Notes under the pieces: model-generated
Database searches by the model: none
What the model saw: the letters and a program-made list of their open reading frames with translations, nothing else
What the model was told of the DNA's origin: nothing
Shown: positions 3,001 to 21,000 of the stretch, piece by piece
How the letters are laid out: every line of letters begins with the position of its first letter
Numbering within the stretch: position 1 is the stretch's first letter
Made by a program: the position numbers and the translations under genes
NCBI GenBank assembly: GCA_045651805.1
Contig: JAZRTB010000078.1
Span: 2,707-66,706 of the forward strand
DNA: 64,000 bases
Source: Clostridia bacterium
GTDB taxonomy: Bacteria; Bacillota; Clostridia; UMGS1883
Direction: 5' to 3'

Positions 3001-3223
3001 GGAAACACTACTTAAGAACAATGGTTGCTTCCACACAATCATTTCAGATATTGCACAGGAGAATTTCGGAAAAGTATTTTACGGTATGCCCTTTGCAGTA
3101 ATTGATGCAGATGGCAACGATGCTACCACAGACGACAGAAAAACTGTTGTAGGCGAATTCTTCTCAACATCTGTTTCAGATGTTAACAAGTGGCTTGGCG
3201 CAGAAAATGTTTATGCAAACTAA
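2..3223 (+). CDS. Large cell-surface repeat protein, 5'-truncated by the window edge, with three Listeria-Bacteroides-type (Flg_new-like) repeats
   Basis: ORF 47..3223 stays open in the same frame back to nt 2. Three copies of the GYxFxGW...LYAxW motif are present (DGYDFMGWVDESGKTY..LTAIW; DGYTFAGWYTTP..LYAKW; EGYTFLGWYDAEGNQV..LYARW). No catalytic motif recognised. Confidence 0.6.
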   Translation, partial: TTTVTLGNLDDDCRYMINGSYGEKQSDGTILFENLTPNTTYEVEVIGQASGTAPVYAYVYATTLPVHPVTVKVYLDGGVVDGVPYGTLTDIETFLGSGAKVYLKSENNTYYELTKTSTGVYEANLADGTYYIYSAPNASSQICEQQVTVLGGGRERELFFYSVTYDANGGTYAGETLEYHHDDNKVMVSSVVPVKDGYDFMGWVDESGKTYQSGDVLAEEIYNPYKLTAIWEKTKYAKVNVTVVATHGTSNGADPHPESGSMHIELAYRHNDSEPYVEYVGKNNNFSDWYERGTNSGNTTTVTFPELYKELHIGYEYSATVVLDDYYVTGSNVTSTTDAEGNITYDVTINISYSPDLFNLEYKVVADNSIPSDLVPKAVDMKVLSWDANVDGEWAPISRHVEYSTDVELSGRNGNGSYAVPVYRNENENYYYRAAAVGFTLADGTELTASSTDGINFYSDANDKYGKGAFYAVIDVNGGADVDGTDLDGAYGIYAQDTATGYKQQGTITVTIYMNRYDVIFDTQGGEAIGAIPEQFRIPDVSMYVPFKDGYTFAGWYTTPACTDGTEVVVGQALTSDITLYAKWLENRTIQGTITVAGFYMLDGEKVQIPENDRLESEIVLLQKIDHNGYFITLASDTVDVSYSGDYGTAQFEFTDIANDDEEYRITILSHNYEVAYQNELSSSTEVTNYNAYDANHYKAEFNGDVNATVNAYLHFEPVDFELLYSIDASALGEGYRPSSAETVILCNDGSTSNPQTWSPISQMLVGGNREGQDTALSGGKGDDSYPVWTAHADGTTLYEYAISVDSLVFDGEKVEYTSDAPFAIYYNGSARFSDINGQTQLLTATVVPKLYEIVFDLGVDAEEIVTGMNGYHYHEDHNTYGDTYYWSYGKQITATPVREGYTFLGWYDAEGNQVTVVTPDMAENITLYARWTQDLSFQVLADAGYYSAERNSADKVGVISLNAHINDIETVIDSIVSFGIYVYDNSSAETKIITESVNKETLLKNNGCFHTIISDIAQENFGKVFYGMPFAVIDADGNDATTDDRKTVVGEFFSTSVSDVNKWLGAENVYAN

Positions 3224-3449: not shown

Positions 3450-3489
3450 AAACTCCCCGAAAACAATGGTTTTCGGGGAGTTTTGTTTT
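3450..3489. terminator. Bidirectional rho-independent terminator between convergent genes
   Basis: 12-bp perfect stem CTCCCCGAAAAC/GTTTTCGGGGAG with loop AATG, followed by TTTTGTTTT on the + strand. An A-run on the 5' side gives a U-run on the minus strand. Confidence 0.85.
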
Positions 3490-3510: not shown

Positions 3511-5286
3511 TTATAAATCGCTTGCAGATGTGAAGTGACTGTCTATTTCTGATTTTTCTTCCTTGTGTTCCACCGGTGATGACATCCTGAGCTTGCTCTC
3601 GGGAGTGGGAGCAGGGGGGACAACACCGGGGGCAGGATTTTCATAAGCACGGGCATCGAACGCCGGAGTCGCAGATTCACGGTTCATATATGCTGTTTCA
3701 GTAGGATCATATGCGTTTGATTGCGGGGCAACATCCTGCTGAATGGGATTCTGCGGAGTATAGGTCTGTGTTGTTTCCCTGACAGCTGTATAGCCGTTTG
3801 CAGGAGGCACCGGTTCGCTTGCGGGTGCAACAGGTGGTGTCGCAGGAGCATATGAACGTGTATGTGTTCTTGCTATCTTCGCTTTTTTACGTTTCTTACT
3901 CTTAACTGCAAGAATAATTGAAACAACGATTATAAGAAGAAGGAGAACGCCTGCTGCAATAATAATGATAAGAATGACGGGAAATTCCTTCTTTGTAGCC
4001 GGTTCTGTTTGCGGAGCTTCCTCTGCAAGGTCAATCAGCAAGTCAATGTAAGGAGTATTCTTATTAAGATCCTTTACTCTCTCAAAACAGTTTACTGCAG
4101 CGAGACCATAGCCCTGCTGGAGCATCTGAAGTCCTGTAAGGAATGTCTTACTTGCTTCACCCTGCTCTATGTCAAGTCCGTCAGCAAGGTCTGAAACAAA
4201 CTCTGCAGACACCATGTAAGCGAAACGATAGTCGCTTGAAAGAGCATAAGTGTTAAGACCTTCTACCTGAAGATGCTTGTCAACCGAAGGACCACCGCTG
4301 TTACCACCGGAGATTCTGGCTGTAATCTCAATTGCTTTATAATCTGTACCATCAATGGGAACAAGTCTTGAAACTGTACCGGGAGAGGTTGAAACACTTA
4401 ACGTTGATGCATCACTACCGGCACTTGAGAAAATTTCCTCTGCGGCACCGGGGAAGCCTGCAGCAACAATAGAGCTGTTTGTCTCGGGATACGTTTCGGA
4501 TAATGTAAGTGCAACAAGATTTTTTGCATCTATTTTAAGAATAGCTGTATCCTCTGTAAGTCCCTCAATGTTTTCCTGAGTTCCTATTTCAATAAGCTCG
4601 GCATCGTATTTGATACCATTCTTATAAGAGGTATCACCATCAGCTGTGGGGAAGCATGCTTTTAATTTAGTTTTTTCTTCGAGCACTTCAGCATTTGCGG
4701 CAGAAGCATATAAAACAGCTTCATTCAAGGCAAGATAATCTTCTTCACTTATAGTTATGTCGTTTTCATAAATGTCGTAAAGAATTTCTTCAACGTCCTC
4801 CGCAACACTTTGGTCAAGTGAGTACATATAAATCATAAGCTTGGTCTGCTCATCAAGAGCTGCAACGTGAGCGTTTGTTGCAATGTAACCGTCATCACTT
4901 ATGATTACTGCACTACCGCTTGCTGCACCATCAACATTTTCAGTCTTATAAGAACCGAAAACGACAAATTCAAGAACGTTTTCCTTGATTCTGTCAATAA
5001 GTTCCTGTTCGCTGGATACTTCACCTCTCCAGATTTCTACCTGGGCAGCGAACTTTTCAGAGTCAACCTGAACAGGACGATAACGAATCCGTGCCTCATA
5101 CTCCAGAATAATCTGGGGAACTACTGATTTTAAGGCATGTCCGATATACTCGTCTTCATACTCGAAGTTTTCGTTGTAGCCGTATTTTTCGTAAAGCTTC
5201 TCATCTTTTTCGCAAAAACCTGCGATGGAGAAGAGGAGCAGAGCTGCAACAAACAACGCGAGAAATCTTTTGATTTTAACTTTCAT
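3511..5286 (-). CDS. Membrane-anchored trypsin-like (S1, chymotrypsin-fold) serine protease with a Pro-rich cytoplasmic tail
   Basis: SD AAGGAGG upstream. N-terminal signal peptide (MKVKIKRFLALFVAALLLFSIAG). Catalytic contexts TNAHV ... DTAILKID ... GGNSGGPS. C-terminal TM helix (ILIIIIAAGVLLLLIIVVSIILAV) followed by KSKKRKKAK and a ~130-aa Pro/Ala/Thr-rich tail. Confidence 0.8.
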   Translation of the reverse strand: MKVKIKRFLALFVAALLLFSIAGFCEKDEKLYEKYGYNENFEYEDEYIGHALKSVVPQIILEYEARIRYRPVQVDSEKFAAQVEIWRGEVSSEQELIDRIKENVLEFVVFGSYKTENVDGAASGSAVIISDDGYIATNAHVAALDEQTKLMIYMYSLDQSVAEDVEEILYDIYENDITISEEDYLALNEAVLYASAANAEVLEEKTKLKACFPTADGDTSYKNGIKYDAELIEIGTQENIEGLTEDTAILKIDAKNLVALTLSETYPETNSSIVAAGFPGAAEEIFSSAGSDASTLSVSTSPGTVSRLVPIDGTDYKAIEITARISGGNSGGPSVDKHLQVEGLNTYALSSDYRFAYMVSAEFVSDLADGLDIEQGEASKTFLTGLQMLQQGYGLAAVNCFERVKDLNKNTPYIDLLIDLAEEAPQTEPATKKEFPVILIIIIAAGVLLLLIIVVSIILAVKSKKRKKAKIARTHTRSYAPATPPVAPASEPVPPANGYTAVRETTQTYTPQNPIQQDVAPQSNAYDPTETAYMNRESATPAFDARAYENPAPGVVPPAPTPESKLRMSSPVEHKEEKSEIDSHFTSASDL

Positions 5287-5304: not shown

Positions 5305-7569
5305 TTACGCATATTTTGTTATGAAATCATCAAGGCTCTTACATAAGTCATCGGCAGAACATTCAAGTTCATGTAAGTGCTCTTTTTTCCTTGATATGGC
5401 AGATTCACCTTTTTCCATTTCTGCAATGGAAACATGGAACTGACTTTTTATAAGCTCAATTTCATTATCTATTGAAGAAACCAATCTGTCAGCAGAGGTT
5501 TTGTAGAAATTGAGGATTTCATCTGAAATCAGATGTGAAAATTCCATTGTTGATCTACGAAGCTCAACAACTGCCTTTTCGGTAATTGTAGATTTCAGCT
5601 TTACAAGTGCAGGGGAGCCGGAAGTGCCTTTAGCTCCTGTGAAAATTGATGAAACGGCACCCGATAAGATGCTTGCACCTGAAAGAGTCTGAAGTGAATT
5701 CATAGTTTGTCCGCTTATATTCATGGTAAGCTTCCTTGTGGCGGAAGAAACATTTCCGCGGGCTTCAAAAAATGAAACTTCACTGCTGAGAGTTCTTTTT
5801 GAACTTAAAGACTCAGTATGGTCTTTTGAAAGTCTGGCAAGAGCATGCTGTGCCTCATCCAATATTACGTTGGTTTCTGATTTTGCAGAATCGAATATTG
5901 TAGAATAATTATCCTTGATTGCAGGTAAAAGTACGGATTCCTGCCAATATGTCTGATGCGCTTCCATTTTTCTTGCAAAATGTGAAGTAATTTCCTGGGA
6001 AACCGACTCAAGCTTCTGTTTGGAGGGGACAATACCCAGGTCCTGCGAGGGAATGAAAGTATCAATCCACATAGGGATATCAGCAATGGTTCCTGACAGA
6101 TTATTTGAAACCATAGATTCAAATTTGTATCCGCACTGTGATATTGAAAGAAGTGTCTTGTCGTACAAAAACTGTCTTTTTCTTTCAAGGGAATCCAGAA
6201 CGGGAAGCATTTTGTTGTAGTTCTTTTTAAGGTCATCCACTGACGTGTCAAGCATACTGCGATGACGGGGGATGATTTTACCGATTGTTTCGGATTTCAG
6301 GAACTTATTAAGCTGGCGTGCGGGAAGAACAAGCTTCATATTACCTTTCTTCTTTGTAAGGAAATCAGAAAGAGAATCTTCAAAACGGGGAAGCCCTGAA
6401 TGAATAAGCTTTTCTTTATCGTGCGTGCTTTTAGCTTCAAGAGCGTTACGGGCAGATATGAAGAAAATACCCTTTTCGCCAAAGCTTGTAAAAGGCAGTA
6501 ATTTGCTGATCGCATATTTCATAATGCGATTTTTCTCTTTATCGGGAATCATATCAAATCTGTTTACAACAAAGAACAAATCCTTGAATCCCTGTGCTTT
6601 AAGGTTATGCTCAATAAAGTTCATTTCCTCCATAGAACACAATGTTGTTGCATTCAGAACAAAAATCACCGCGTCAGATTTGCTTATAAAGTCCATTGTA
6701 ACCTTTGTTCTGGTGGAGTGCTCGTTAAGTCCGGGTGAGTCAACGATTTCTACACCATTTTTGAGTAAATCAAGAGGCCAGAAAAGTTCAACCTTCTCAT
6801 ACGGACTTTCAAGAATCATATCCTTGGGGTCTTTACCGAGAGGAATTACCACATACTGCTCTATTTTATCGTAGGGTATCTCCATAGGCGGTATTTTCCC
6901 GCCGGGATGCTTTTTTATGTGTGATAATGCTGCCGCCGGAATCTCATTCGGGAGTTCTTCGGGAAGCGGATTTTTAAAATGTATAACAGCTTTTTTTGTT
7001 TCGGCATATTTTAGTTCGTTAATGACTGCAGTACACGGGAGTGCGTGAGCAGGGAGGACCTCTTTACCGAGAAATGAGTTGATGAATGTAGATTTTCCGT
7101 TTTTAAACGTACCTACAATCTGAACCTTAAGTGTTTCGCTATGTATTCTGTTGCTCATTTCTTTTAACTGCTGTGTCAGATTTTCCATTTCAAGCTCATA
7201 CATAAGCTCCGAGGCTCTGTCAAGAAGCTTTGAAAGGTGATTCTTGTCCCTTCTGAACATTGCATACGGTGAAGTGTCGTCATCAGCGTCATCATCTATC
7301 TGAGAAAGAAGAATACTTTTTCCGCCTGTGAGCGTATCTGCAGGGGGGATTTCCTTTTTCTTCAGCCCGTTGACTTTGAGGCGGCTGACCTTCTCTTCAG
7401 GTGATGAAGTCTTGAAAGAAGAACGCAATTTCCCCATAGTTGTTCCTGAAGCCTTTGAATCTTTTGATGTATCAAAAGACCCCGGATTGTGAAAGGATGG
7501 ATCCTGAAGTGAGGACGCCGGTATCAAAGCTGTATTAATTTTATCATTTTTACCGCTGAAGTTATGCAT
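5305..7569 (-). CDS. Bacterial dynamin-like GTPase (BDLP), second of a tandem pair
   Basis: SD AGGAGG 4 nt before the ATG. G1 P-loop GTFKNGKSTFINSFLG, G3 DSPGL, G4-like VNRFD. Long helical C-terminal region. ~110-aa low-complexity N-terminal extension. Confidence 0.8.
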   Translation of the reverse strand: MHNFSGKNDKINTALIPASSLQDPSFHNPGSFDTSKDSKASGTTMGKLRSSFKTSSPEEKVSRLKVNGLKKKEIPPADTLTGGKSILLSQIDDDADDDTSPYAMFRRDKNHLSKLLDRASELMYELEMENLTQQLKEMSNRIHSETLKVQIVGTFKNGKSTFINSFLGKEVLPAHALPCTAVINELKYAETKKAVIHFKNPLPEELPNEIPAAALSHIKKHPGGKIPPMEIPYDKIEQYVVIPLGKDPKDMILESPYEKVELFWPLDLLKNGVEIVDSPGLNEHSTRTKVTMDFISKSDAVIFVLNATTLCSMEEMNFIEHNLKAQGFKDLFFVVNRFDMIPDKEKNRIMKYAISKLLPFTSFGEKGIFFISARNALEAKSTHDKEKLIHSGLPRFEDSLSDFLTKKKGNMKLVLPARQLNKFLKSETIGKIIPRHRSMLDTSVDDLKKNYNKMLPVLDSLERKRQFLYDKTLLSISQCGYKFESMVSNNLSGTIADIPMWIDTFIPSQDLGIVPSKQKLESVSQEITSHFARKMEAHQTYWQESVLLPAIKDNYSTIFDSAKSETNVILDEAQHALARLSKDHTESLSSKRTLSSEVSFFEARGNVSSATRKLTMNISGQTMNSLQTLSGASILSGAVSSIFTGAKGTSGSPALVKLKSTITEKAVVELRRSTMEFSHLISDEILNFYKTSADRLVSSIDNEIELIKSQFHVSIAEMEKGESAISRKKEHLHELECSADDLCKSLDDFITKYA

Positions 7570-7620: not shown

Positions 7621-9642
7621 TTAGTTAAATCTATCAAGTTTTGTGCATAAAGCATAAAGCTTATCGTAAATAGGCTGAAGACTGCTGTCAGAACTGCCGG
7701 TAGCGGAAGAAAGAGCACTTTCGATAACTTTCTTCTGTGACTGTGTCCAGCCTTCCTGCTGTTTGGTAGCTTCCGACAGAATTGTATTGTACATATTCTT
7801 GATTCTGCTTTCGCTGTAAGAAACAGCGTTGTCTACTATGACGGGAACTCGCTTGTCTACTTCGTCCTTGAGAGCAAGCTTCTGACTTTCAATCTTCTTT
7901 TTGAATATTGCATCGGCTACCATGTGGCCGCCTGTTCCAAGTCCTATTGTAGCAACGAATGTAGGCCAACCTATAATTGCAAATAGCGCTGTCGTACCCA
8001 AAGAAAAGGCTGTGGAACCGATTTTATTAACCAGTTTTTCTTTTGACATATCTTTTGCAATGTCTTCCGGGGGTGTATCAAAGTTTGTATAAGCATTCTT
8101 GTCGGTTACCTCTTCGGGGGTATAGAGGACACTTGTCTTGAAGTTCTTTTCAAGAACAGAGTTAAGCCAGGAGACATCCTTTGTAACTGTTTTGGAAATC
8201 ATATTTTCCGTGGATGAAGAGAAGTTCGTCATCTCAATCTTTAGCCTGTACGGAAAATCTTCCGTCCACCATCTATGAGGATCTCCTGTGCGGGACAACT
8301 CGTACTGCATTTTTTCTGTAAGAGAATTTTTTAAATCCTCCGCCTTTGTATTAAATTGAGAATAACATTCATCAGCCTTCTGAATCATTTTGATTTTTAC
8401 TTCATCCCAGATTTCATCAGCCTTCTGAAGCATTTGAGTTTTCTGTTCTATGAGCTGCGTTTTTTCTTCGTCAGAACCTGCACTCTCAATACATTTCTGT
8501 TCGTTTATAGTGTTGAGCGCAGACTGGAAACAAGACTTAAGTTGGAGTGCGTACCAACGATCTGTAAGGTTCTTGCGGTCAGAGTCGTTCATCCATGTGT
8601 TAATCTGATTAACAATTTTGTCCATACCGATGATATCGCTATATGTGGAGTCAGGCATAGGAATGTTGTAAGGAACAAAAACAGAGATGTTATCCATTTC
8701 CCACATCTTGAGCTTCTGTCTGACAAATTCAATAACTCCGCTTCTCTGATTGATATCTACCTGGTCAAGTTTTGTGATAATAAGCATAAGGAAGGGTGTC
8801 TTTTTTGTGATAAGACGCTCTTCAATGAATACTTTTTCGCTCATACTCATTGCAGAGAGAGCGCTGATTGTAATGATTGCACAGTCGCTGTTTTTAAGCG
8901 CATCACCAATAACTCTCGTACGCTTAAGCTCAAGGTCACCTGCACCGGGAGTATCAACTATCTCAATACCATTCTTAAGTAACGGACATTTGATGTCCAC
9001 GAATGCAACCCCGTTCGGGTCGTGACCTTCATCGTCTGCAATATAATCTTCCCACGAATCAACAGATAAGGGGAGAGTACGTTTTTGTTTCTTATGTGCA
9101 TCAAAAACAGTAATTCCCTCTGCTCCTGCAGTATAGCGAATTCTTGTAAGAATCGCTGTTGTGGGCATATTTGCAACGGGAAGAATTTCCTTGCCGATAA
9201 GTTTGTTGACAAATGTACTCTTTCCGCGACTGAATTCGCCCACAACGGCAACTGTGAATTTGTGTTTATCGGCTTCCTTTGTCAAACCTTCAATTTCAGA
9301 CCTGAAAGGAGCAAATTTCTCGTCGCTGAGAACATTTGAAGCCTCCTTTGCAATGCCGAGAAGAGTCGGATCAAGCTTGATTGTAGCAGCAACAGGGGAA
9401 ACAACTTTTCGAACGTTTTCTCCGCCTTGAGGAGCAATTTTCTTTTGCTCCGTAACCTTCGGTGCAGCCTTTACAGGCGCAACCTTTTCCGGTTCTGCAT
9501 AACTGCGAGCGGGTGCAGGCTCATCTGCTGACAAGCTTGAAGCAGTCTTGAATGTGCTGGTGAAAGCAGGCTTTTTTGTTTCTGCATTGTTATCAAGCGA
9601 TGCATTTGATTTGAAAAAACTTGAAGTAAATCGGTCTGACAT
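7621..9642 (-). CDS. Bacterial dynamin-like GTPase (BDLP), first of a tandem pair
   Basis: SD AAGGAG. G1 VVGEFSRGKSTFVNKLIG, G3 DTPGAGD, G4 ITKLD. Ala/Pro/Lys-rich N-terminal ~110 aa. Hydrophobic stretch GSTAFSLGTTALFAIIGWPTFVATIGLGTGG near the C-terminus (candidate membrane paddle). Confidence 0.8.
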   Translation of the reverse strand: MSDRFTSSFFKSNASLDNNAETKKPAFTSTFKTASSLSADEPAPARSYAEPEKVAPVKAAPKVTEQKKIAPQGGENVRKVVSPVAATIKLDPTLLGIAKEASNVLSDEKFAPFRSEIEGLTKEADKHKFTVAVVGEFSRGKSTFVNKLIGKEILPVANMPTTAILTRIRYTAGAEGITVFDAHKKQKRTLPLSVDSWEDYIADDEGHDPNGVAFVDIKCPLLKNGIEIVDTPGAGDLELKRTRVIGDALKNSDCAIITISALSAMSMSEKVFIEERLITKKTPFLMLIITKLDQVDINQRSGVIEFVRQKLKMWEMDNISVFVPYNIPMPDSTYSDIIGMDKIVNQINTWMNDSDRKNLTDRWYALQLKSCFQSALNTINEQKCIESAGSDEEKTQLIEQKTQMLQKADEIWDEVKIKMIQKADECYSQFNTKAEDLKNSLTEKMQYELSRTGDPHRWWTEDFPYRLKIEMTNFSSSTENMISKTVTKDVSWLNSVLEKNFKTSVLYTPEEVTDKNAYTNFDTPPEDIAKDMSKEKLVNKIGSTAFSLGTTALFAIIGWPTFVATIGLGTGGHMVADAIFKKKIESQKLALKDEVDKRVPVIVDNAVSYSESRIKNMYNTILSEATKQQEGWTQSQKKVIESALSSATGSSDSSLQPIYDKLYALCTKLDRFN

Positions 9643-9655
9643 AGGAATGCTCCTT

Positions 9656-10186
9656 TTATACTAAATGTTTTGTATAAAAGCTGTTTGCAAGCAGCTTATA
9701 GATAGGCTTAAGCGAAGGCTCAAGCATAATGTTGAGAAGGTCAGAAAATACTCTTGCATCTTCCTTTGTGTATTCGCTGTCGGAAAGGATGGAAGAAATT
9801 CTCTTGTCATACATTGAGAAAAGCTCTGCCTTTTTAGCCTTATATTCGCTTCTTGAGTAGGTTTTGATTGCATCGTGTCTGAAAAAACCGATAGGTGCAT
9901 TAAAATCTACTTTTCTGAAAGCACTATTGTACTTAAGATCTTCAAAACCGATACATTTTTTATCGGGTAATGAAACTGTAATTATGTATCTGATAGGGAA
10001 GACAAGTGTTTTGTCAACTTCGCCTGTAACCTTGTACTTCAGGAAAGGAATCTGGAGGCAAAGTGTGGAGTTTTTCTGAACAAGCATAGGAATGCCTGCT
10101 GAATATCCCATCGGAATACCGCAGTTAAGATAAAAGTCGCTTGTTGTAAATTCTTTCATAAACTGATTTGTATCAAAATTTTTCAT
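9656..10186 (-). CDS. Hypothetical 176-aa soluble protein, translationally coupled to the upstream acidic protease-like gene
   Basis: Its ATG overlaps the upstream TAA stop (TAATG, shared A at 10186), with SD GGAGGT inside the upstream gene. No TM segment, signal peptide or motif recognised. Confidence 0.6.
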   Translation of the reverse strand: MKNFDTNQFMKEFTTSDFYLNCGIPMGYSAGIPMLVQKNSTLCLQIPFLKYKVTGEVDKTLVFPIRYIITVSLPDKKCIGFEDLKYNSAFRKVDFNAPIGFFRHDAIKTYSRSEYKAKKAELFSMYDKRISSILSDSEYTKEDARVFSDLLNIMLEPSLKPIYKLLANSFYTKHLV

Positions 10187-12582
10187 TATTCGTTACCTCC
10201 TACAAAACATTCTGTCATCTGGCAGTTACCATCTTCCCATGCATCAATGAATGCATCCATGGGAATTGCGAGGCCTGCACCATCGGGAACACCTGAATCA
10301 TTAACGATAACCATGGGGTTTTCGGGATCTGAATTGTCAATACCTATAACCTCAATAGCGTGGTCAATACCATCGGGAGCATAGGTGTAGTCGTTATCAC
10401 CTGTCCAATATTCATCTGCGTCAACAGATACAATTACCTTGTCACCGTCAGCAAGCGCTTCAGCAAGGTCATCGATTGTGTTTCCGTAGGTTGTTTCGTG
10501 AGGAACTCCGTAGTATTCAAGAAGCTTGTCCATGCAGTTAGTATATGTGCCACCTTCTTCGGTAAACCAACCGTTTTCTTCTGCAACATCACAAAGCTCT
10601 TCAATATCAACATCAGTACCTGTGTATTCTTCGATAACAAACATCTGTGCATAGATTGCACAACGGTTTGTGTTGCCCTGACTTTCCCAAAGGTCCATTG
10701 CTTCTTCCGGCTCACCGATTACCATATCGGGATCTGCCTCTGAAGGATCAAATCGTTCAAGGTCTTCGTAATATGTTGCATTTTCAGCGTTTGAGTCATA
10801 CTCGATTTCAGGAAGAACGATTTCTTCTGTATCGTCAGTATCCTCATACTCTACATCTTCAGTATATTCAGTATCTTCGATGTCTTCGGTGCTTTCGTAG
10901 TCAGAAGGTTCGTCTCCACCGATAACGTTCATATCAACACCTTCAGATTCGCGTATGCCCATATCAAAACTGTCGGTTGTGCCATCACCGTCAAGATCCT
11001 GTGCAGAAACGAAGAATTCCTTCATTTCACCTTCGGGGCCTTCAACGATGACTCTTGCTTCTGCAGAATCTGCAATGCCGTCGCCATCTGTGTCAAGTGT
11101 TTCGTAAACAACGTCTGCCTTGCCGTCCCCGTTAAGGTCCTGTGCGTGATAAGCGTAGTCAACATTTCCGTCACCGTCAAGGTCCTGCTCAACAGAGCTG
11201 TAGTCAGAAACACCGTCACCGTTTGAATCGTAGTCAGTTACAGCAGTATCAATAATACCATCACCGTCGGTATCTGCTGTGACAACTACAGAATCTGTAA
11301 CACCATCGCCATCAGTATCAAGTTCTTCATAGGTCTGGTCTACAACGCCATCACCATTTGTATCTGCTTCTTCGTAAATATAGTCAACAACGCCGTCGCC
11401 GTTAGTATCTTCTACATAGGAAGCGTAATCAATATTACCGTCACCATCAGTATCGGTAGCTTCATATGCGTAGTCTGAATTGCCGTCGCCATCAACGTCG
11501 CCTTCCTCGTAGATGTAGTCAACAGCACCGTCTCCATTAGTATCAGCTTCTTCGTAAGTGTAGTCAACAACTCCATCAGCGTTTGAGTCTTCGGCATAAA
11601 TTGCGTGGTCAATATTACCGTCGCCATCAGTATCGGTAGCTTCATATGCGAAATCTACATTGCCGTCAGCATCAAGGTCGCCTGCTTCATAAATATAGTC
11701 AACAGCACCGTCACCGTTCGTGTCTACCTCTTCATAAACGTAGTCGGTAACACCATCACTGTTGATATCTTCGCTGTATGCGGTATAATCAACAGTACCG
11801 TCACCGTTTGTATCGGCATATAAGTTTGCGTAATCGGCATTACCGTCGCCATCGATATCTGTTTCAATAAGTGTTTCGTCTACGATACCGTCGCCATTAT
11901 AATCTGTTTCGGTAACAGTAGTATCTTCTATACCGTCGCCATCTGAATCATATGAGAAAGATTCAGCTTCAGGCTCTTCGGTAACATACTCGGTAGCTTC
12001 AGGCTCTTCGGCGGTATACTCGGTTGATTCAGGTTCTTCGGTAGTATATTCTGTTTCCTCTTCTGCCAATTCCAAAGGAGCCATAAAGAGAGATTCTCCT
12101 TCTGTAGAACCGAACGAAACTTCATCATATACGCCGTCACCGTCAAGATCTGCTGCTTCAGCATAAGTAACAGTTGCACTTCCGTCGTCATTGGGGGTGA
12201 AGAAAGAAACACCGGAATAATCCATTGAACCGTCAAGATTTGTGTCAATCTGTTCGGTAAGAATATCCGCAATTCCGTCGCCGTCAAGGTCTTCTGCGTA
12301 CAACTCATAGTCAACCAAACCATCATTGTTGGTGTCAGAGGATAAAACGGTAATATCCGCAATACCATCACCATCTGTGTCTATATCAGCGTAGTATGAG
12401 TCTGCGATTCCGTCACCGTCGGTATCTACAAATTCTTCGTAAATATCGTAAGAATCGTCAGAAGCATCTGCTGCTTCGAAGTCTGATTCATCGTCTACAG
12501 ACCAAAGGTCTACATCCTCTTCGCCTGAAACCTCTTCTGTGCCGTAATCTTCATCGTCGTAATACATTTCTTCGTTTGTCAT
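10186..12582 (-). CDS. Leaderless, highly acidic protein: ~27 tandem DxDGDG calcium-loop repeats plus a C-terminal papain-fold (peptidase C39-like) domain
   Basis: The listed ORF starts at TTG 12597, but ATG 12582 (MTNEEMYY) sits 7 nt after GGAGGG, so it is the preferred start. N-terminal ~600 aa are Asp/Glu-rich with a 15-aa periodicity (DTNGDGVVDYIYEEA-like). The C-terminal ~170 aa carry QGNTNRCAIYAQM (Cys codon 10660..10662), DHAIEVIG (His 10360..10362) and VNDSG (Asp 10297..10299), with C39-like order and spacing. No signal peptide or TM segment. Confidence 0.7.
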   Translation of the reverse strand: MTNEEMYYDDEDYGTEEVSGEEDVDLWSVDDESDFEAADASDDSYDIYEEFVDTDGDGIADSYYADIDTDGDGIADITVLSSDTNNDGLVDYELYAEDLDGDGIADILTEQIDTNLDGSMDYSGVSFFTPNDDGSATVTYAEAADLDGDGVYDEVSFGSTEGESLFMAPLELAEEETEYTTEEPESTEYTAEEPEATEYVTEEPEAESFSYDSDGDGIEDTTVTETDYNGDGIVDETLIETDIDGDGNADYANLYADTNGDGTVDYTAYSEDINSDGVTDYVYEEVDTNGDGAVDYIYEAGDLDADGNVDFAYEATDTDGDGNIDHAIYAEDSNADGVVDYTYEEADTNGDGAVDYIYEEGDVDGDGNSDYAYEATDTDGDGNIDYASYVEDTNGDGVVDYIYEEADTNGDGVVDQTYEELDTDGDGVTDSVVVTADTDGDGIIDTAVTDYDSNGDGVSDYSSVEQDLDGDGNVDYAYHAQDLNGDGKADVVYETLDTDGDGIADSAEARVIVEGPEGEMKEFFVSAQDLDGDGTTDSFDMGIRESEGVDMNVIGGDEPSDYESTEDIEDTEYTEDVEYEDTDDTEEIVLPEIEYDSNAENATYYEDLERFDPSEADPDMVIGEPEEAMDLWESQGNTNRCAIYAQMFVIEEYTGTDVDIEELCDVAEENGWFTEEGGTYTNCMDKLLEYYGVPHETTYGNTIDDLAEALADGDKVIVSVDADEYWTGDNDYTYAPDGIDHAIEVIGIDNSDPENPMVIVNDSGVPDGAGLAIPMDAFIDAWEDGNCQMTECFVGGNE
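10969..12426 (-). repeat. Intragenic tandem coding repeats (15-aa D-x-[DN]-x-D-G-x-x-D units; also a 3x 10-aa TEYxxEEPEx repeat)
   Basis: Hand count of 27-28 D-x-D/N-x-D-G loops in the translated ORF. The DNA shows the matching ~45-nt periodicity (gtcaccatc / gccgtcgcc motifs). Confidence 0.8.
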
Positions 12583-12617
12583 ATATATTCCCTCCAATAT
12601 ATAATATAGGTACTTCC

Positions 12618-12646
12618 ATTATAAACCATTTGTATTTGTTTTGCAA
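12618..12646 (-). promoter_or_regulatory. Sigma-A-type promoter of the five-gene operon
   Basis: Minus strand reads TTGCAA (12646..12641), a 17-nt spacer, then TATAAT (12623..12618), about 35 nt upstream of ATG 12582. Confidence 0.6.
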
Positions 12647-12683: not shown

Positions 12684-12829
12684 TAAAGCGGTGTTTACAT
12701 AGGGATAAATTGGTTTTAGAATGCTCTTTTCGGTTAATGCTTTACAAAAAAACGCGTAAAGCGGTGTTCACATAGAGATGAATTGGTTTTAGAATGCTCT
12801 TTTCGGTTAATACTTCACAAAAAAATCGC
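12684..12829. repeat. Two tandem copies of a 73-bp intergenic unit
   Basis: Units start at 12684 and 12757 (TAAAGCGGTGTTyACATAGrGATrAATTGGTTTTAGAATGCTCTTTTCGGTTAATrCTTyACAAAAAAA). About 90% identical by eye. Confidence 0.85.
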
Positions 12830-12860
12830 ATAATACGTCAGTATTACGCGATTTTTATTG
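12815..12860 (-). terminator. Rho-independent terminator of the downstream GT2 gene (hairpin usable on both strands)
   Basis: Stem ATCGCATAATAC/GTATTACGCGAT (one mismatch), loop GTCA, flanked by an A7 run on + (U-run on minus) and by TTTTTATT on +. Confidence 0.7.
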
Positions 12861-18068: not shown

Positions 18069-21000
18069 ATGAAAATTGCTATGAAAAAAGCGGTCAAGTG
18101 GACGATTTCAATCCTTTTGATAGTTGCAATAGTTGCTGCCATAGTAGTGACTGCGGCAATAACACTTACAAAAGAAAAAGATATCGTCACAACGGAGGAA
18201 ATGTACAGAGAAATAGCTCAGGAGGTAGAACGTTTTTCTTATGACGAAGAAACAGGCTTGTTGTTCGTTAATAATGAAATCGTAGTAGTTGCGGCAGAGG
18301 GTACTGATGCCAGAGCTATGGAGCGTTTGGCAGACAGATACGATGCTGAGATCGCAGACAAAATGGAGGATGTCGGAATTTACAATTTCAAGTTTGCATC
18401 CCAGATGGAAGCAGACGAGATTGACGACATTGCTGAAGAACTCAGTAATGAAACGGGAGTTGAAGATGCATATCTTGTTCCCGTCGTTGCTTGTGAAACT
18501 GATGACGAAGTTTATCCCAATGACCCGTGGAACGGTGCTGACTGGGATGTAGATAACCCCGAAGGCGAGAACTGGGGTACTGAGGCTATAAATGCACCCG
18601 GTGCATGGGAGTATATGGACGAGCTTCAGGAAGTAAATGTAGGTCTTATTGATACATATGTAAGAACAGACCACGAAGACCTCGAAACGACTGCTTTGTT
18701 TACTTCTATAGATACCGAGTCAGGATATTCTTCAACAAAAGCGATGAATGTGTCTGCCGATAAAGCAGGCGACCATGGTTGTCATGTGGCAGGTACAATG
18801 GGTGCAACATGGGATAACGGAAAAGGTATTTCAGGTATCCTCGGCACAAAAGGTAACATATACAGCAGTAACACTATAAGGTACGAGACAAGAAATAACA
18901 AGACCATAACGCAGTATTATTCTGCTTATGAGTATGTTAAAGCAATCAAGGCTCTTGTTAATAAGGACGTACGCGCTATTAACATCAGCCAGAACACAGG
19001 CAGACTTCTCGGATTTGCGGCTTCAAGGGGCAACAAGAAAGCTCTTGATTATCTTGAACGTCAGGCATCACTTGCAGGAAATATGCTTGGCAGAATTATA
19101 ACAGATATTGAAGAAAACGGTGGTACTGATTTTGTTATCTGTATCTCTGCCGGTAACAGTAATGACACATATTATTACGAGGACGACTCTTCAATGTACG
19201 GCTTTACAGAAAAGCGCGGATTACGCTTCTGGATGAATGAGTACAAAGGTAATTCCGAAGCAAAGTACAATAACTTCCTTTCTCTTATCGAAGACGAAAA
19301 AGTAAAGAACAGAATTATTGTAGTAGGTTCCGTACAACTGAATACAGATTCAGCTTCTTCTGAATACAGAAAATATGTGGAATCACCTTTCTCATGTGTT
19401 GGTGAAAGAGTTGACGTAATGGCTCCGGGCGTAAACGTATACAGCCTTACAGCCAACGGATATGATTTAAAGTCAGGTACATCAATGGCAGCTCCCCATG
19501 TAACTGCAGTTGCAGGTCTTGCATTTGCGGCTAATCCGTCTCTGTCGGGTCCTGAAGTTAAAATTATAGTAACTTCTCTGACAAACGGAAGATATTATCA
19601 CGGTGACGATTTCTTCAGCGGTATGGTTGATGCAAAGAAGGTTGTGGAATATGCTCTTAAGACAAATACCGGTGAAGCGGCTCCTATATCAAATACCACA
19701 TCCGGTCTTGATCTTTGCTTTATTGTTGATACAACCGGTTCGATGGGTGACGATATAGAAAATGCAAAAGAAAATATGGTAGATATTCTCGGCAAATTGT
19801 CAGAAAAGACTCCTGACTACAGAGTTGCATTGGTTGACTACAGAGATTTCCCTGAAAGAGCAGGCTACTCTGACTATCCGTCAAAAGTTCAGCTGAATTT
19901 CTCATCAGATAATGACGCGATTGTAGATGCAATTAACGCTCTCAGCCTTGGTAGTGGCGGTGACTGGAAAGAAACTGTTTATTCAGGTATTCATTCAGCT
20001 CTCGGTCTTGACTGGAGACCCCGTTCACAGAAAATAATTATTATTCTCGGAGATGCACCACCGCTTGATCCCGAACCTGTTACAGGATATACATATGATG
20101 ATGTAATTGAGGCGTTGTTTAATGCCGATATCGGTATTGACCTTGAAAGTTCGGATTCAAGAGTTCTCGGCGACCCCGATGACAGTGCTATGTGTGTATA
20201 TTCAATCGGAATCGGTGGCGATGATGAAGGCTTCTTTGAAAAAATTGCAACAGATACCGGTGGTGTTTATACCGAGGTTGAAAGTGCGGAGGAAGTTTCA
20301 GATGCTATCATAGGCTCAATTGAAAAGATTGAAATTGAGTCATTCGATGTGACAGTAAGCTTTGGTGAAGAATTCTCCGGTGAAACTGTTGATATCTATA
20401 ACGAAGATGGTTATATGTTCTCGCATTCTCTTGATGATTCAGGTAACTTTGTTCTCGGAGCAATGCCTGAAGGTGACTACGACTGGAAGATAGCACGTCT
20501 TGGCAAATCCGGACAGATTACAATTGAAACGGAAGAAGATCATGTCGATGCAGAAGCTACCGGAAGTGAATGGTACAGTTTTGCTTTGGTAGTGTGGTAC
20601 AGACACAGAGTTGCTCTTATTTCTGTAACTGCCGGAATAATCGTATTGCTGATTCTCATTTTTGTTATTATTTCGAAAGTAAAGAAAGCTATCAGAAAGA
20701 AACGTGAGAAGGCAAAGAAACTGTGCTGCGTATGCGGTGCGGAAATGATGAAGGATCAGAGATTCTGCGATAAGTGCGGTAGTGATAACGATGCCGGTAG
20801 CGGTGTAGAAGAAGCTCCCGTGCAGGAACAGGTAATTCAGGAAAATTACAATGTTGCTCCCGAAGCGGAGACAGCACCTATGGAGGAGTACCTTGCAGGT
20901 GTTGAAAGTGAAACTGTAAGTGAACCGGAAGCTCCCGCAGAAGAACCGATTAATGAAGTTGTTGAAGTTCCCGTGCAGGAACAGCCTCAGGCAGCTCCTC

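What the first reader, a model, noticed from the sequence alone, without database searches (positions are those of the whole stretch)
10186..12582. Calpain-like architecture: ~27 tandem DxDGDG calcium loops fused to a C39-like Cys-His-Asp domain, with no export signal
Seen: residues ~45-535 are almost entirely a 15-aa unit (for example DTNGDGVVDYIYEEA, DTDGDGNIDYASYVE), with 27-28 D-x-[DN]-x-D-G-x-x-D loops by hand count, interrupted once by a 3x TEYxxEEPEx repeat. The last ~170 aa read WESQGNTNRCAIYAQM ... DHAIEVIGID ... IVNDSG, which has the order and spacing of a papain-fold C39-like triad. The N-terminus (MTNEEMYYDDEDYG...) has no signal peptide, TM segment, or LXG/WXG-type feature that I can recognise. 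Established: D-x-D-x-D-G loops coordinate Ca2+ in EF-hands, dockerins and thrombospondin type-3 repeats, and C39-like domains are cysteine peptidases. Inference: this could be a Ca2+-sensing or Ca2+-buffering cytoplasmic protease, or a non-classically exported effector. The unit is neither the 9-mer RTX repeat nor a paired 22-aa dockerin.
Basis: partly seen in the sequence, partly recalled or inferred. Interest (0 to 1): 0.75.

Follow-up and report, generated by a model that had tools for sequence, protein, structure and literature searches.

The report
Calcium-loop cysteine protease of dynamin operons
This gene encodes a signal-less, extremely acidic protein with 27 calcium-type loops and a papain-fold cysteine protease domain, and it is the first gene of a widespread, apparently undescribed operon that always pairs this protease with a small novel-fold protein and usually with bacterial dynamin-like membrane-remodelling GTPases.

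Summary
The minus-strand ORF 10186..12582 (798 aa) has 27 D-x-[DN]-x-D-G-x-x-D loops in exact 15-residue register, against 0.12 expected by shuffling. It also has a 3x TEY repeat and no hydrophobic segment. Its C-terminus passes Pfam Peptidase_C39_2. It gives a confident papain-fold model that matches cathepsins and a C39-like peptidase. Gln635, Cys641, His741 and Asn761/Asp762 are invariant.

The gene heads an operon: protease, a translationally coupled 176-aa protein (p176, no solved-structure relative), two BDLP/mitofusin-type dynamin-like GTPases, a membrane serine protease, then a terminator. Protease→p176→2-3 dynamins recurs in about 70 of 80 genomes across six or more phyla. Among loci found through p176, 55 of 55 carry the protease upstream. 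In one lineage p176 is fused to the first dynamin. Loop number varies from 0 to 33 among relatives.

Best reading (inferred): a cytoplasmic, Ca2+-responsive protease subunit of a dynamin-based membrane-damage or defence machine. "Calpain-like" is an analogy only; it is not a calpain or a true C39. I found no literature on this operon.

The parts
12618..12646 (-). Sigma-70-like promoter (TTGCAA, 17 nt, TATAAT) of the operon. A GGAGG Shine-Dalgarno site follows at 12591..12595.
10186..12582 (-). CDS of 798 aa plus stop: acidic Ca-loop array fused to a C39-like papain-fold cysteine peptidase.
12124..12426 (-). Ca-loop block A (residues 53-153): 6 DxDxDGxxD loops.
11965..12054 (-). 3x TEYxxEEPEx decapeptide repeat (residues 177-206).
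10954..11949 (-). Ca-loop block B (residues 212-543): 21 loops, 20 of them contiguous at exact 15-residue spacing. The DNA has a 180-bp (4-unit) higher-order period.
10189..10782 (-). C39-like papain-fold domain (residues ~601-798; Pfam PF13529 covers 634-763). Catalytic codons: Gln635 10678-10680, Cys641 10660-10662, His741 10360-10362, Asn761 10300-10302, Asp762 10297-10299.
9656..10186 (-). p176: a 176-aa obligate partner protein. Its start codon overlaps the peptidase stop codon (TAATG), with AGGAGG inside the 3' end of the peptidase gene. It has no Pfam, NCBIfam or PADLOC family. The structure model is confident and has no PDB match.
7621..9642 (-). DLP1: a 673-aa dynamin-like GTPase with a disordered N-terminal extension and a hydrophobic membrane paddle (residues 551-569).
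5305..7569 (-). DLP2: a 754-aa dynamin-like GTPase. The closest solved relative is Nostoc BDLP (2j68, E 4e-33).
3511..5286 (-). Last cistron: a 591-aa trypsin-like (Trypsin_2) serine protease with an N-terminal signal/anchor and a TM segment at 437-455. It is not a conserved member of the system.
3450..3483 (-). Intrinsic-terminator-like hairpin (15 pairs plus a T-rich tail) that ends the operon.
12684..12825 (.). Two 69-nt direct repeats (93% identical, 73-nt spacing) just upstream of the promoter. They may be regulator-binding sites. An inverted repeat at 12821-12856 probably terminates the upstream GT2 gene.

Best explanation
SHOWN. The gene encodes a leaderless, hyper-acidic protein. Its N-terminal two-thirds is an array of 27 DxDxDG-type calcium-loop units of 15 residues. 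Its C-terminal ~200 residues form a papain-fold (Pfam C39_2) cysteine peptidase with invariant Gln635, Cys641, His741 and Asn761 (Asp762 is also invariant). It is the first cistron of a tight operon. It is translationally coupled to a 176-aa novel-fold protein (p176) and is followed by two BDLP/mitofusin-type dynamin-like GTPases. The peptidase-p176 pair is obligate. The pair is followed by 2-3 dynamin-like genes in most genomes across Clostridia, Bacteroidales, Cyanobacteria, Proteobacteria, Actinobacteria and Acidobacteria. In one lineage p176 is fused to the N-terminus of the first dynamin.

INFERRED. The protein stays in the cytoplasm and, through p176, works as the proteolytic/regulatory subunit of the dynamin-like membrane-remodelling machine. 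In resting cytoplasm, where free Ca2+ is sub-micromolar, the loop array is largely unloaded and polyanionic. When the envelope is breached (pore formers, phage, lysis from without), inflowing Ca2+ loads the loops. This folds or neutralises the array and switches on or relocates the peptidase. The peptidase then cleaves a component of the p176/dynamin complex or a membrane-proximal substrate, licensing or terminating dynamin assembly at the lesion. This is a calpain-like logic, not calpain homology.
For: - Ca-loop array: 27 loops in 15-residue register against 0.12 expected, with ligand positions 1, 3, 5, 6 and 9 conserved while other positions vary.
- Peptidase identity: PF13529 scores 28.7 bits against a 24-bit cutoff. 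The AF2 model has pLDDT 90.8. Foldseek top hits are cathepsins S/K/L and 3erv, a C39-like peptidase (E ~1e-6, TM ~0.6). A profile alignment puts His741 and Asn761 on the catalytic His and Asn of cathepsin K. Gln, Cys, His, Asn and Asp are invariant in 52 homologues.
- Cytoplasmic location: there is no hydrophobic segment in this protein or in 89 relatives. The promoter and SD site define the start codon. No secretion system lies in the window. The partner proteins are cytoplasmic or membrane-peripheral dynamins.
- Coupling: the stop and start codons overlap as TAATG, with an internal SD site.
- Synteny: independent gene calls in ENA/NCBI contigs; about 70 of 80 genome loci; RefSeq annotation of Anabaena plasmid pANA01 as C39 peptidase, hypothetical, dynamin x2; p176-ascertained metagenome loci with the peptidase upstream in 55 of 55 and dynamins downstream in 36 of 46.
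- Fusion: p176 is residues 2-177 of a 775-aa dynamin in L001 (E 2e-58), and DLP1 is residues 194-760 (E 7e-144).
- Dynamins: they are of the BDLP/mitofusin class. [quoted passage not shown]
Against: - No experiment supports Ca2+ binding, protease activity, substrate or localisation.
- DxDxDG loops are best known from extracellular proteins.
- Loop number ranges from 0 to 33 in orthologous operons, and proteobacterial members have none. Ca2+ sensing therefore cannot be essential to the conserved core function, and 27 loops is far more than a sensor needs.
- A subset of peptidase-p176 pairs lack dynamins and sit with HerA-like ATPases or FHA/kinase genes instead, so the pair is not dynamin-specific.
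- No conserved cleavage motif was found in the dynamin N-termini.
Confidence: 0.4

Rival explanations
1. Non-classically exported protease. The leaderless protein stays unfolded at low cytoplasmic Ca2+. It is released in membrane vesicles generated by the co-encoded dynamins (or by lysis). It then folds and acts outside the cell, where Ca2+ is millimolar, following an RTX-like logic.
For: DxDxDG loop arrays are typical of extracellular Ca2+-stabilised proteins (established knowledge). Dynamin-like LeoA and IniA/IniC have been linked to vesicle secretion, as cited in the introduction of bioRxiv 10.1101/2025.05.27.656310. The operon ends with an extracytoplasmic trypsin-like protease and lies next to cell-envelope genes.
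Against: There is no signal peptide, T7SS/LXG/WXG feature, T9SS C-terminal domain or transporter in the protein, the operon or the window. Translational coupling to p176, which is fused to a cytoplasmic dynamin in L001, argues for an intracellular complex. The same operon occurs in both monoderm and diderm phyla, which would need different export routes.
Confidence: 0.2
2. Anti-phage or conflict system. The dynamin-like proteins sense or counter infection at the membrane (Eleos/DynA-like). The C39-like peptidase plus p176 is the effector/adaptor module, for example cleaving a host or phage target to abort infection. The acidic array serves as a regulatory or decoy element.
For: The DLPs hit the PADLOC LeoA and LeoBC models (E 2e-15 and 7e-11). 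DynA protects B. subtilis against phage (PMC8844932). The operon is on plasmids (Anabaena pANA01). It is 50-60% identical between Clostridia and Bacteroidales, which suggests horizontal transfer. Some loci lie next to ThsB-TIR/TPR genes, or to STK/FHA/PP2C/VWA clusters. The peptidase-p176 pair swaps NTPase partners, either dynamins or a HerA-like ATPase. The only structural relative of p176 found anywhere is an uncharacterised gut siphovirus protein (BFVD A0A8S5LSF7, E 4e-5, TM 0.67-0.74).
Against: The peptidase and p176 match no PADLOC model. The window locus lies among housekeeping and envelope genes, not in an obvious defence island. No phage record carries the peptidase domain. This reading overlaps with the best explanation rather than excluding it.
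Confidence: 0.2
3. The loop array is not a Ca2+ sensor. It is a polyanionic spacer, solubility or decoy domain, for example mimicking an anionic membrane surface to hold the basic or paddle regions of the dynamins off the membrane. The conserved function lies entirely in the peptidase domain.
For: Every family member keeps an acidic N-terminal region (20-33% D+E) even when it has no loops at all. Copy number is highly variable and has recently expanded (180-bp higher-order repeat). DLP1 orthologues carry basic, disordered N-terminal extensions.
Against: The strict conservation of exactly the Ca-ligand positions (D1, D/N3, D5, G6, D9) across 27 units, and across 571 units from relatives, would not be needed for charge alone.
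Confidence: 0.12
4. Toxin-immunity or protease-inhibitor pair. The C39-like domain is a toxin or dangerous protease, and p176 is its cognate immunity protein or inhibitor, as in staphopain-staphostatin operons. The dynamins are incidental neighbours.
For: The gene order is protease then small protein, with translational coupling, and the pair is obligate.
Against: p176 is well conserved across phyla rather than hypervariable and is fused to a dynamin in L001. It has no structural similarity to staphostatins, cystatins or chagasin in the PDB. There is no N-terminal trafficking domain. Dynamins follow in about 78-88% of loci, in a fixed order.
Confidence: 0.06

Closest known systems
Peptidase_C39_2 (Pfam PF13529) 'C39-like' papain-fold peptidases, e.g. 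PDB 3erv from Bacillus anthracis
   Same: The HMM match is above the gathering score. The fold is the same (Foldseek E 1.6e-6, TM ~0.6). It has the Gln/Cys/His/Asn(Asp) catalytic set.
   Different: The 2023 classification describes C39_2 members as single-domain and transporter-associated (PMC10318531). This subfamily is leaderless, hyper-acidic, carries 0-33 Ca-loop units, and is locked to p176 and dynamin-like GTPase genes.
True C39 bacteriocin-processing peptidase domains of ABC exporters (PF03412)
   Same: Clan CA papain-like fold and Cys/His catalysis.
   Different: There is no PF03412 match and no fused or neighbouring ABC transporter. No conserved double-glycine site was found in the candidate partner proteins.
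Calpains (MEROPS C2): Ca2+-activated cytoplasmic papain-like proteases involved in eukaryotic membrane repair
   Same: A cytoplasmic papain-fold cysteine protease is combined with Ca2+-binding motifs. It sits in a plausible membrane-damage context, because of the neighbouring dynamin-like proteins.
   Different: This is a different peptidase family, with no Peptidase_C2 match. The Ca motifs are 15-residue DxDxDG loops N-terminal to the protease, not a C-terminal penta-EF-hand domain. Ca2+ dependence is untested.
DxDxDG calcium-binding loops as in bacterial TSP3 repeats (PF18884), FG-GAP/VCBS, dockerins and EF-hands
   Same: The same ligand pattern, D1-x-D/N3-x-D5-G6-x-x-D9.
   Different: Only sub-threshold Pfam scores were obtained (TSP3_bac 14.7 against 25; FG-GAP 12.2 against 22.1). 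The period is a uniform 15 residues. There are no cysteines, no paired 22-residue dockerin unit, no helix-loop-helix and no signal peptide.
Bacterial dynamin-like protein operons: Nostoc BDLP, Campylobacter DLP1/2, B. subtilis DynA, E. coli LeoABC/Eleos, mycobacterial IniBAC
   Same: Paired or tripled DLP genes sit side by side. The DLPs are of the BDLP/mitofusin type with a membrane paddle. Some loci carry Hsp70 and GrpE-like genes, like the cyanobacterial 'chaperone clade' (PMC5827413).
   Different: None of the DLP papers or reviews I could search mentions a C39-like peptidase or a p176-like gene as an operon component.
LapG/BTLCP (MEROPS C93) Ca2+-dependent bacterial cysteine protease
   Same: A bacterial clan-CA-like cysteine protease whose activity depends on Ca2+. 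This is a functional precedent, taken from my own knowledge and the reference list of PMC10318531.
   Different: LapG is periplasmic and transglutaminase-like, binds Ca2+ within the catalytic domain, and acts on an adhesin. It is unrelated in sequence and context.

Membership tests
Peptidase_C39_2 (PF13529) | Match to the family HMM above the curated gathering score | tested here: met
   28.7 bits against a cutoff of 24, E 2e-6, residues 634-763 covering profile positions 7-142 of 143. Many homologues carry a precomputed PF13529 hit.
Peptidase_C39_2 (PF13529) | Papain-like fold with a catalytic Cys on the N-terminal helix, plus His and Asn/Asp on the beta-sheet lobe and a Gln oxyanion residue | tested here: met
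   AF2 model with pLDDT 90.8. Foldseek matches cathepsins and 3erv. His and Asn align to those of cathepsin K. Gln635, Cys641, His741, Asn761 and Asp762 are invariant in 52 sequences.
Peptidase C39 proper (bacteriocin leader peptidase, PF03412) | Match to PF03412, and fusion or adjacency to an ABC exporter | tested here: not met
   There is no PF03412 hit at E<=1. There is no ABC exporter in the operon or elsewhere in the 64-kb window.
Peptidase C39 proper (bacteriocin leader peptidase, PF03412) | Double-glycine leader substrate | tested here: not met
   A GG dipeptide upstream of the P-loop is present in only 3 of 57 DLP1 and 4 of 55 DLP2 orthologues. No leader-peptide gene was seen.
Calpain (MEROPS C2, PF00648) | Calpain catalytic core sequence family | tested here: not met
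   There is no Peptidase_C2 hit at E<=1. The similarity is only at the clan/fold level.
Calpain (MEROPS C2, PF00648) | Penta-EF-hand or other helix-loop-helix Ca2+ domain | tested here: not met
   No EF-hand Pfam family was listed. PDB EF-hand hits are weak (E 0.003) and have low alignment accuracy. A 15-residue period leaves no room for flanking helices.
Calpain (MEROPS C2, PF00648) | Ca2+-dependent proteolytic activity | not testable with these tools
   This needs biochemistry.
DxDxDG calcium-binding loop | Asp/Asn at positions 1, 3 and 5, Gly at 6, and an acidic residue at 9 | tested here: met
   27 of 27 units have D1, D/N3, D5, G6 and D9. The same pattern holds in 571 units pooled from relatives. 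Actual Ca2+ binding was not tested.
RTX (HemolysinCabind) and dockerin repeats | GGxGxDxUx nonapeptide, or paired ~22-residue dockerin segments | tested here: not met
   Neither Pfam family hit at E<=1. The unit length is 15 residues.
Bacterial TSP3 repeat (PF18884) | HMM match above the gathering score | tested here: not met
   14.7 bits against a cutoff of 25, with only profile positions 1-13 of 22 matched.
BDLP/mitofusin-class bacterial dynamin-like pair (the neighbouring genes) | Dynamin_N GTPase domain above threshold, side-by-side gene pair, hydrophobic membrane paddle | tested here: met
   Dynamin_N scores 82.7 and 89.4 bits against a cutoff of 27. The best PDB relative is Nostoc BDLP 2j68. 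The paddle is at residues 551-569 of DLP1.
Eleos (LeoA/LeoBC) anti-phage system | LeoA and LeoBC homologues | tested here: inconclusive
   The PADLOC LeoA (E 2e-15) and LeoBC (E 7e-11) matches are partial, and these models have no curated cutoffs. The NCBIfam LeoA/HP0731 subfamily scores 25.8 bits against a cutoff of 325. Anti-phage activity is not testable here.
Polymorphic toxin / toxin-immunity pair | N-terminal secretion or trafficking domain, and a variable cognate immunity gene | tested here: not met
   There is no trafficking domain. p176 is conserved across phyla and fused to a dynamin in L001.

The most novel reading that the evidence does not exclude
This is a bacterial counterpart of the eukaryotic Ca2+-triggered wound response. 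Ca2+ entering through a damaged membrane loads a multivalent loop array on a cytoplasmic papain-fold protease. Through the adaptor p176, the protease then proteolytically switches a dynamin-like membrane fusion/repair machine on or off. This would make the peptidase-p176 pair the long-missing trigger or regulator of bacterial dynamin-like proteins.
Probability: 0.25. Interest if true: 0.85.

Novelty: new variant of a known kind. Interest (0 to 1): 0.66.

Why it matters
The physiological trigger and regulation of bacterial dynamin-like proteins remain largely unknown. Published work treats them as isolated pairs.

An obligate, phylogenetically broad partnership with a catalytically intact cysteine protease and a novel-fold adaptor gives concrete, testable candidates for that missing regulation. 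The partnership is supported by a natural p176-dynamin fusion.

The variable calcium-loop array suggests how membrane breach could be sensed. If Ca2+ control is confirmed, it would be a rare case of Ca2+ signalling in bacterial cytoplasm and a functional analogue of calpain-based membrane repair. If the system instead proves to be anti-phage, it would extend the Eleos/DynA class with a protease effector module.

Cultured carriers exist for experiments: Bacteroides oleiciplenus YIT 12058, Hydrogeniiclostridium mannosilyticum, Solibaculum intestinale, Anabaena sp. 90 (plasmid pANA01) and Microcystis aeruginosa.

Tried and rejected
1. Double-glycine processing of the dynamin N-terminal extensions. 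Both window DLPs have a GG there, but GG is present in only 3 of 57 and 4 of 55 orthologues, so I rejected this idea.
2. p176 as a staphostatin-, cystatin- or chagasin-like inhibitor. No PDB structural match was found (best E 0.08), and the profile against PDB sequences gave nothing.
3. A known family for p176. There was no hit in Pfam, NCBIfam or PADLOC.
4. The peptidase as a known defence gene. There was no PADLOC hit.
5. Phage origin. No phage record encodes the domain.
6. The repeat array as a known secreted adhesin family. Its best matches are the same leaderless family plus leaderless repeat-HINT proteins, not adhesins. The NCBIfam CglD hit is 19.5 bits against a cutoff of 400.
7. A riboswitch or other RNA family in the upstream repeat region. 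None was found.
8. Literature. Seven searches on dynamin-like proteins combined with C39, peptidase, Hsp70/GrpE or conflict-system terms found no description of the operon. Four papers read on bacterial dynamins or Ca2+ systems did not mention it either.
9. Source organism. The exact full-length protein is not in the 15-billion-protein collection. The source contig of the identical p176 could not be retrieved.
10. Not done.

Full report
**1. Observation**

The region holds one long minus-strand ORF, 10186..12582, encoding 798 aa from ATG. The start is well defined:
- A sigma-70-like promoter (TTGCAA-17-TATAAT) lies at 12646..12618.
- A GGAGG site lies 8 nt before the ATG.
- A terminator-like inverted repeat of the upstream GT2 gene lies at 12821..12856.

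The strict motif D-x-[DN]-x-D-G-x-x-D occurs 27 times, and 24 of the 26 spacings are exactly 15 residues. Composition-preserving shuffles give a mean of 0.12 and a maximum of 3 in 5000 trials. Positions 1, 5, 6 and 9 are invariant and position 3 is always D or N, while the other positions vary. The 3x TEYxxEEPEx insert is at residues 177-206.

The protein is 31% D+E, has four Lys and four Arg, and has a net charge of -242. It has no hydrophobic window above Kyte-Doolittle 0.9. At the DNA level the units are only 60-78% alike, with a 180-bp (four-unit) higher-order period. This indicates real, partly recent tandem expansion rather than an assembly artefact.

**2. The C-terminal domain**

- Pfam Peptidase_C39_2 (PF13529) matches residues 634-763 above its gathering score (28.7 against 24 bits).
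- An alignment of 52 homologues shows invariant Gln635, Cys641, His741, Asn761 and Asp762.
- AlphaFold2 on that alignment gives a confident model (pLDDT 90.8, pTM 0.87).
- The best PDB neighbours of the model are cathepsins S/K/L and 3erv, a Bacillus anthracis 'C39-like peptidase' (E ~1e-6, TM ~0.6).
- A family profile aligns 'ADHAIEVIG' with the catalytic-His segment of cathepsin K, and 'VIVNDSG' with its catalytic-Asn segment 'IIKNSWG'.

The domain is therefore a papain-fold cysteine peptidase with the classic Gln-x5-Cys...His...Asn arrangement.

It is not a true C39 domain, because there is no PF03412 match and no ABC exporter. It is not a calpain, because there is no Peptidase_C2 or EF-hand match.

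**3. The family**

The C-terminal domain has about 100 close relatives in the 5.8-billion-protein set. All are unnamed or annotated 'hypothetical' or 'C39 family peptidase'. A profile search finds 757 representative clusters at E<=1e-30 and 1875 at E<=1e-10.

In 89 family members from fetched loci:
- None has a hydrophobic segment reaching the TM or signal threshold.
- All are acidic (12-33% D+E, nearly all >=20%).
- The number of Ca-type loops ranges from 0 (proteobacterial, some actinobacterial and cyanobacterial members) through typically 4-14, up to 21-33 in some Oscillospiraceae and other Clostridia (L019, L006, L020, L023).
- Loop spacing across the family is mostly 15 residues, with 13 and 17 also common.

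The 27-loop array is thus a lineage-expanded version of a variable module, and the window protein is not unique in length.

A search with the repeat region alone returned mostly the same family. It also returned leaderless proteins in which the same repeats precede a HINT/PT-HINT autoprocessing domain. It did not return a secreted adhesin family.

**4. Genomic context: the main new finding**

In the window the peptidase gene is the first cistron of a tight operon:
- Its stop codon overlaps the start of a 176-aa ORF (p176) as TAATG, with AGGAGG inside the 3' end of the peptidase gene.
- After 13 nt comes DLP1 (673 aa), then DLP2 (754 aa), then a membrane-anchored trypsin-like protease.
- A strong terminator hairpin lies at 3483..3450.

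Both large proteins have Dynamin_N domains. Their best solved relatives are Nostoc BDLP (2j68; E 4e-33 for DLP2), Campylobacter DLP1/2 and mitofusins. DLP1 has the hydrophobic paddle typical of BDLPs.

This arrangement is strongly conserved:
- Independent gene calls on ENA/NCBI contigs show peptidase → ~177-aa protein → 2-5 dynamin genes.
- Of 80 genome loci found through the peptidase domain, about 70 show peptidase → p176 → 2-3 DLPs on one strand. They come from Clostridia, Bacteroidales (including Bacteroides oleiciplenus), Cyanobacteria (Microcystis, Calothrix, Acaryochloris), gamma- and delta-proteobacteria, Actinobacteria and Acidobacteria.
- RefSeq annotates the same string on Anabaena sp. 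90 plasmid pANA01 as 'C39 family peptidase, hypothetical protein, dynamin family protein x2'.
- In 64 metagenome loci ascertained through p176, all 55 with enough upstream sequence carry the peptidase immediately upstream. 36 of 46 with enough downstream sequence carry dynamins.

**5. p176**

p176 has 74 homologues, none named and none with a Pfam domain. Its invariant residues include several polar positions: T54, D58, T60, D83, R103, H104 and E156. Its structure model is very confident (pLDDT 94.3). It has no PDB structural relative (best E 0.08). In BFVD it has a single viral relative, an uncharacterised gut siphovirus protein (E 4e-5, TM 0.67-0.74).

In L001/L002 the first dynamin (775 aa) is a natural fusion. 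Residues 2-177 are p176 (46% identity, E 2e-58) and residues 194-760 are DLP1 (E 7e-144). This fusion argues that p176 acts physically with the first dynamin.

**6. Variants of the system**

- Canonical form in Clostridia and Bacteroidales: a LytTR regulator gene upstream, three DLPs, and a ~175-aa membrane protein downstream.
- Second type (cyanobacteria, proteobacteria, actinobacteria, some Clostridia): an Hsp70-TPR gene upstream and a GrpE-like gene between two DLPs. This recalls the cyanobacterial 'chaperone clade' of DLPs (PMC5827413).
- Minority form: the peptidase-p176 pair sits with a HerA-like (DUF87) ATPase, or with FHA and Ser/Thr-kinase genes, and no dynamin.

The invariant core is therefore peptidase + p176, which is usually but not always plugged into a dynamin set.

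**7. Mechanism**

Shown:
- A catalytically intact papain-fold peptidase.
- A Ca-ligand-conserving loop array.
- No export signal, and no secretion system nearby. The rest of the window is ordinary chromosomal Clostridia content: GerA/B/C, LysRS, SpoVE/PBP, Obg, LeuRS, trigger factor.
- Translational coupling to p176.
- Obligate pairing with p176, and a p176-dynamin fusion.

Inferred:
- The protein is cytoplasmic and works in a complex with p176 and the DLPs.
- Bacterial DLPs such as DynA gather at membranes after pore-forming antibiotics or phage (PMC12998192 and PMC8844932). The steep Ca2+ gradient across the envelope would make Ca2+ influx a direct read-out of membrane breach (the gradient is from established knowledge, not tested here). 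The most economical model is that Ca2+ loads the loop array and thereby activates, relocates or releases the peptidase, which then processes a component of the dynamin machine.

I give this whole chain a probability of about 0.4. The structural and contextual part is near certain. The Ca2+-switch part is speculative, chiefly because orthologous operons work with zero loops.

Rivals:
- Export in dynamin-generated vesicles, with extracellular Ca2+-dependent folding (0.2).
- An Eleos/DynA-like anti-phage system with the peptidase as effector (0.2). This overlaps with the main model and is supported by weak LeoA/LeoBC matches, plasmid carriage, cross-phylum similarity, defence-like neighbours and the phage p176-like protein.
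- A purely polyanionic spacer or decoy role for the array (0.12).
- A toxin-immunity or protease-inhibitor pair (0.06).

**8. Comparison with what is known, and novelty**

By family, the domain is a member of Pfam C39_2. By logic, it resembles calpain (a cytoplasmic papain-fold protease plus Ca2+ motifs in a membrane-damage context) and LapG (a Ca2+-dependent bacterial cysteine protease). It is a member of neither.

The loops satisfy the DxDxDG pattern but do not reach the thresholds of TSP3_bac, FG-GAP, EF-hand, RTX or dockerin models.

A 2023 classification of papain-like peptidases describes C39_2 as single-domain and transporter-associated, with no dynamin link (PMC10318531). Papers and reviews on bacterial DLP operons mention HcpA-like, DnaJ/DnaK, KGK and HSR1 neighbours, but not this peptidase or p176. 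Seven full-text searches on dynamin-like proteins and candidate partners found nothing on the association. This absence is limited to the open-access library searched.

I rate it a new variant of a known kind. The components belong to known superfamilies, but the architecture, the obligate p176 partner and the dynamin linkage appear undescribed.

Interest is 0.66. It offers a concrete handle on the open question of how bacterial dynamins are triggered and regulated.

Noticed in passing
window 9656..10186 (-): p176 gives a very confident predicted structure (pLDDT 94.3) with no PDB match. Its single strong BFVD match is an uncharacterised gut siphovirus protein (A0A8S5LSF7; E 4e-5, TM 0.67-0.74). 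Its invariant polar residues (T54, D58, T60, D83, R103, H104, E156) suggest a ligand-binding or catalytic site.
   Followed up: partly
window 12684..12825: Two 69-nt direct repeats (93% identical, 73-nt spacing) lie just upstream of the operon promoter. They are unique in the window and match no Rfam family. In many related loci a LytTR regulator gene sits upstream of the peptidase, so these repeats could be regulator-binding sites.
   Followed up: partly
window 3511..5286 (-): The last cistron of the operon is a 591-aa trypsin-like protease with an N-terminal signal/anchor, a TM segment at 437-455 and a Pro-rich C-terminal tail. Its only match among related loci is to a small TM protein family (c11), probably through the TM/tail region.
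   Followed up: partly
window 18069..21104 (+); L001 1..9524; L130 4121..9150: A 1011-aa subtilase (S8) + VWA + zinc-ribbon protein lies about 5.5 kb upstream in the window. Relatives of the operon sit next to Ser/Thr kinase, FHA, PP2C and VWA-FHA gene clusters. This may be a recurring signalling or conflict-system association.
   Followed up: no
L088 1852..3105; L091 497..1738 (proteins P0319, P0324, P0342): The same 15-residue DxDGDG repeat array occurs, again without a signal peptide, N-terminal to HINT/PT-HINT autoprocessing domains in unrelated marine and other metagenome contexts. The array is a mobile module that is repeatedly joined to (auto)proteolytic domains.
   Followed up: partly
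L010, L033, L039, L082, L083: In a minority of genomes the peptidase-p176 pair is linked not to dynamins but to an ~890-aa HerA-like (DUF87) ATPase, a small TM protein and, in L010, L033 and L039, a double-zinc-ribbon protein.
   Followed up: partly
L069, L063, L086 (Anabaena sp. 90 plasmid pANA01) and other type-2 loci: An Hsp70-TPR protein is encoded upstream, and a GrpE-like protein is encoded between the two dynamin genes. This suggests chaperone-assisted assembly or disassembly of the dynamins. On pANA01 a cutA (divalent-cation tolerance) gene follows the dynamins.
   Followed up: partly
L004 1..1190: A 366-aa protein with weak Peptidase_C39_2 plus RyR-domain hits, and a separate 93-aa RyR-domain protein, lie about 9 kb upstream of the operon. 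ThsB-TIR and TPR proteins lie in between.
   Followed up: no
window 7621..9642 (-) and DLP1 orthologues: The first dynamin of the operon carries a basic, disordered N-terminal extension of ~60-130 residues. The extension begins with a conserved short motif (N/D-x-D/N-F-F-K/R; SSFFKS in the window). In the p176-dynamin fusion of L001 this extension is replaced by a short linker. It may be a docking motif.
   Followed up: partly
L073, L074, L075 (tubeworm endosymbionts); protein P0191: Two tandem paralogous peptidase genes precede p176 in gammaproteobacterial endosymbionts. One metagenomic protein of 1099 aa has four matching stretches, that is, tandem C39-like domains.
   Followed up: no
window 47..3223 (+) and 41317..45678 (-): Two large probable surface proteins: a 1058-aa protein with Listeria-Bacteroides repeats, and a 1453-aa protein with aBig_2 domains plus an esterase/dienelactone-hydrolase domain. 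They are unrelated to the finding.
   Followed up: no
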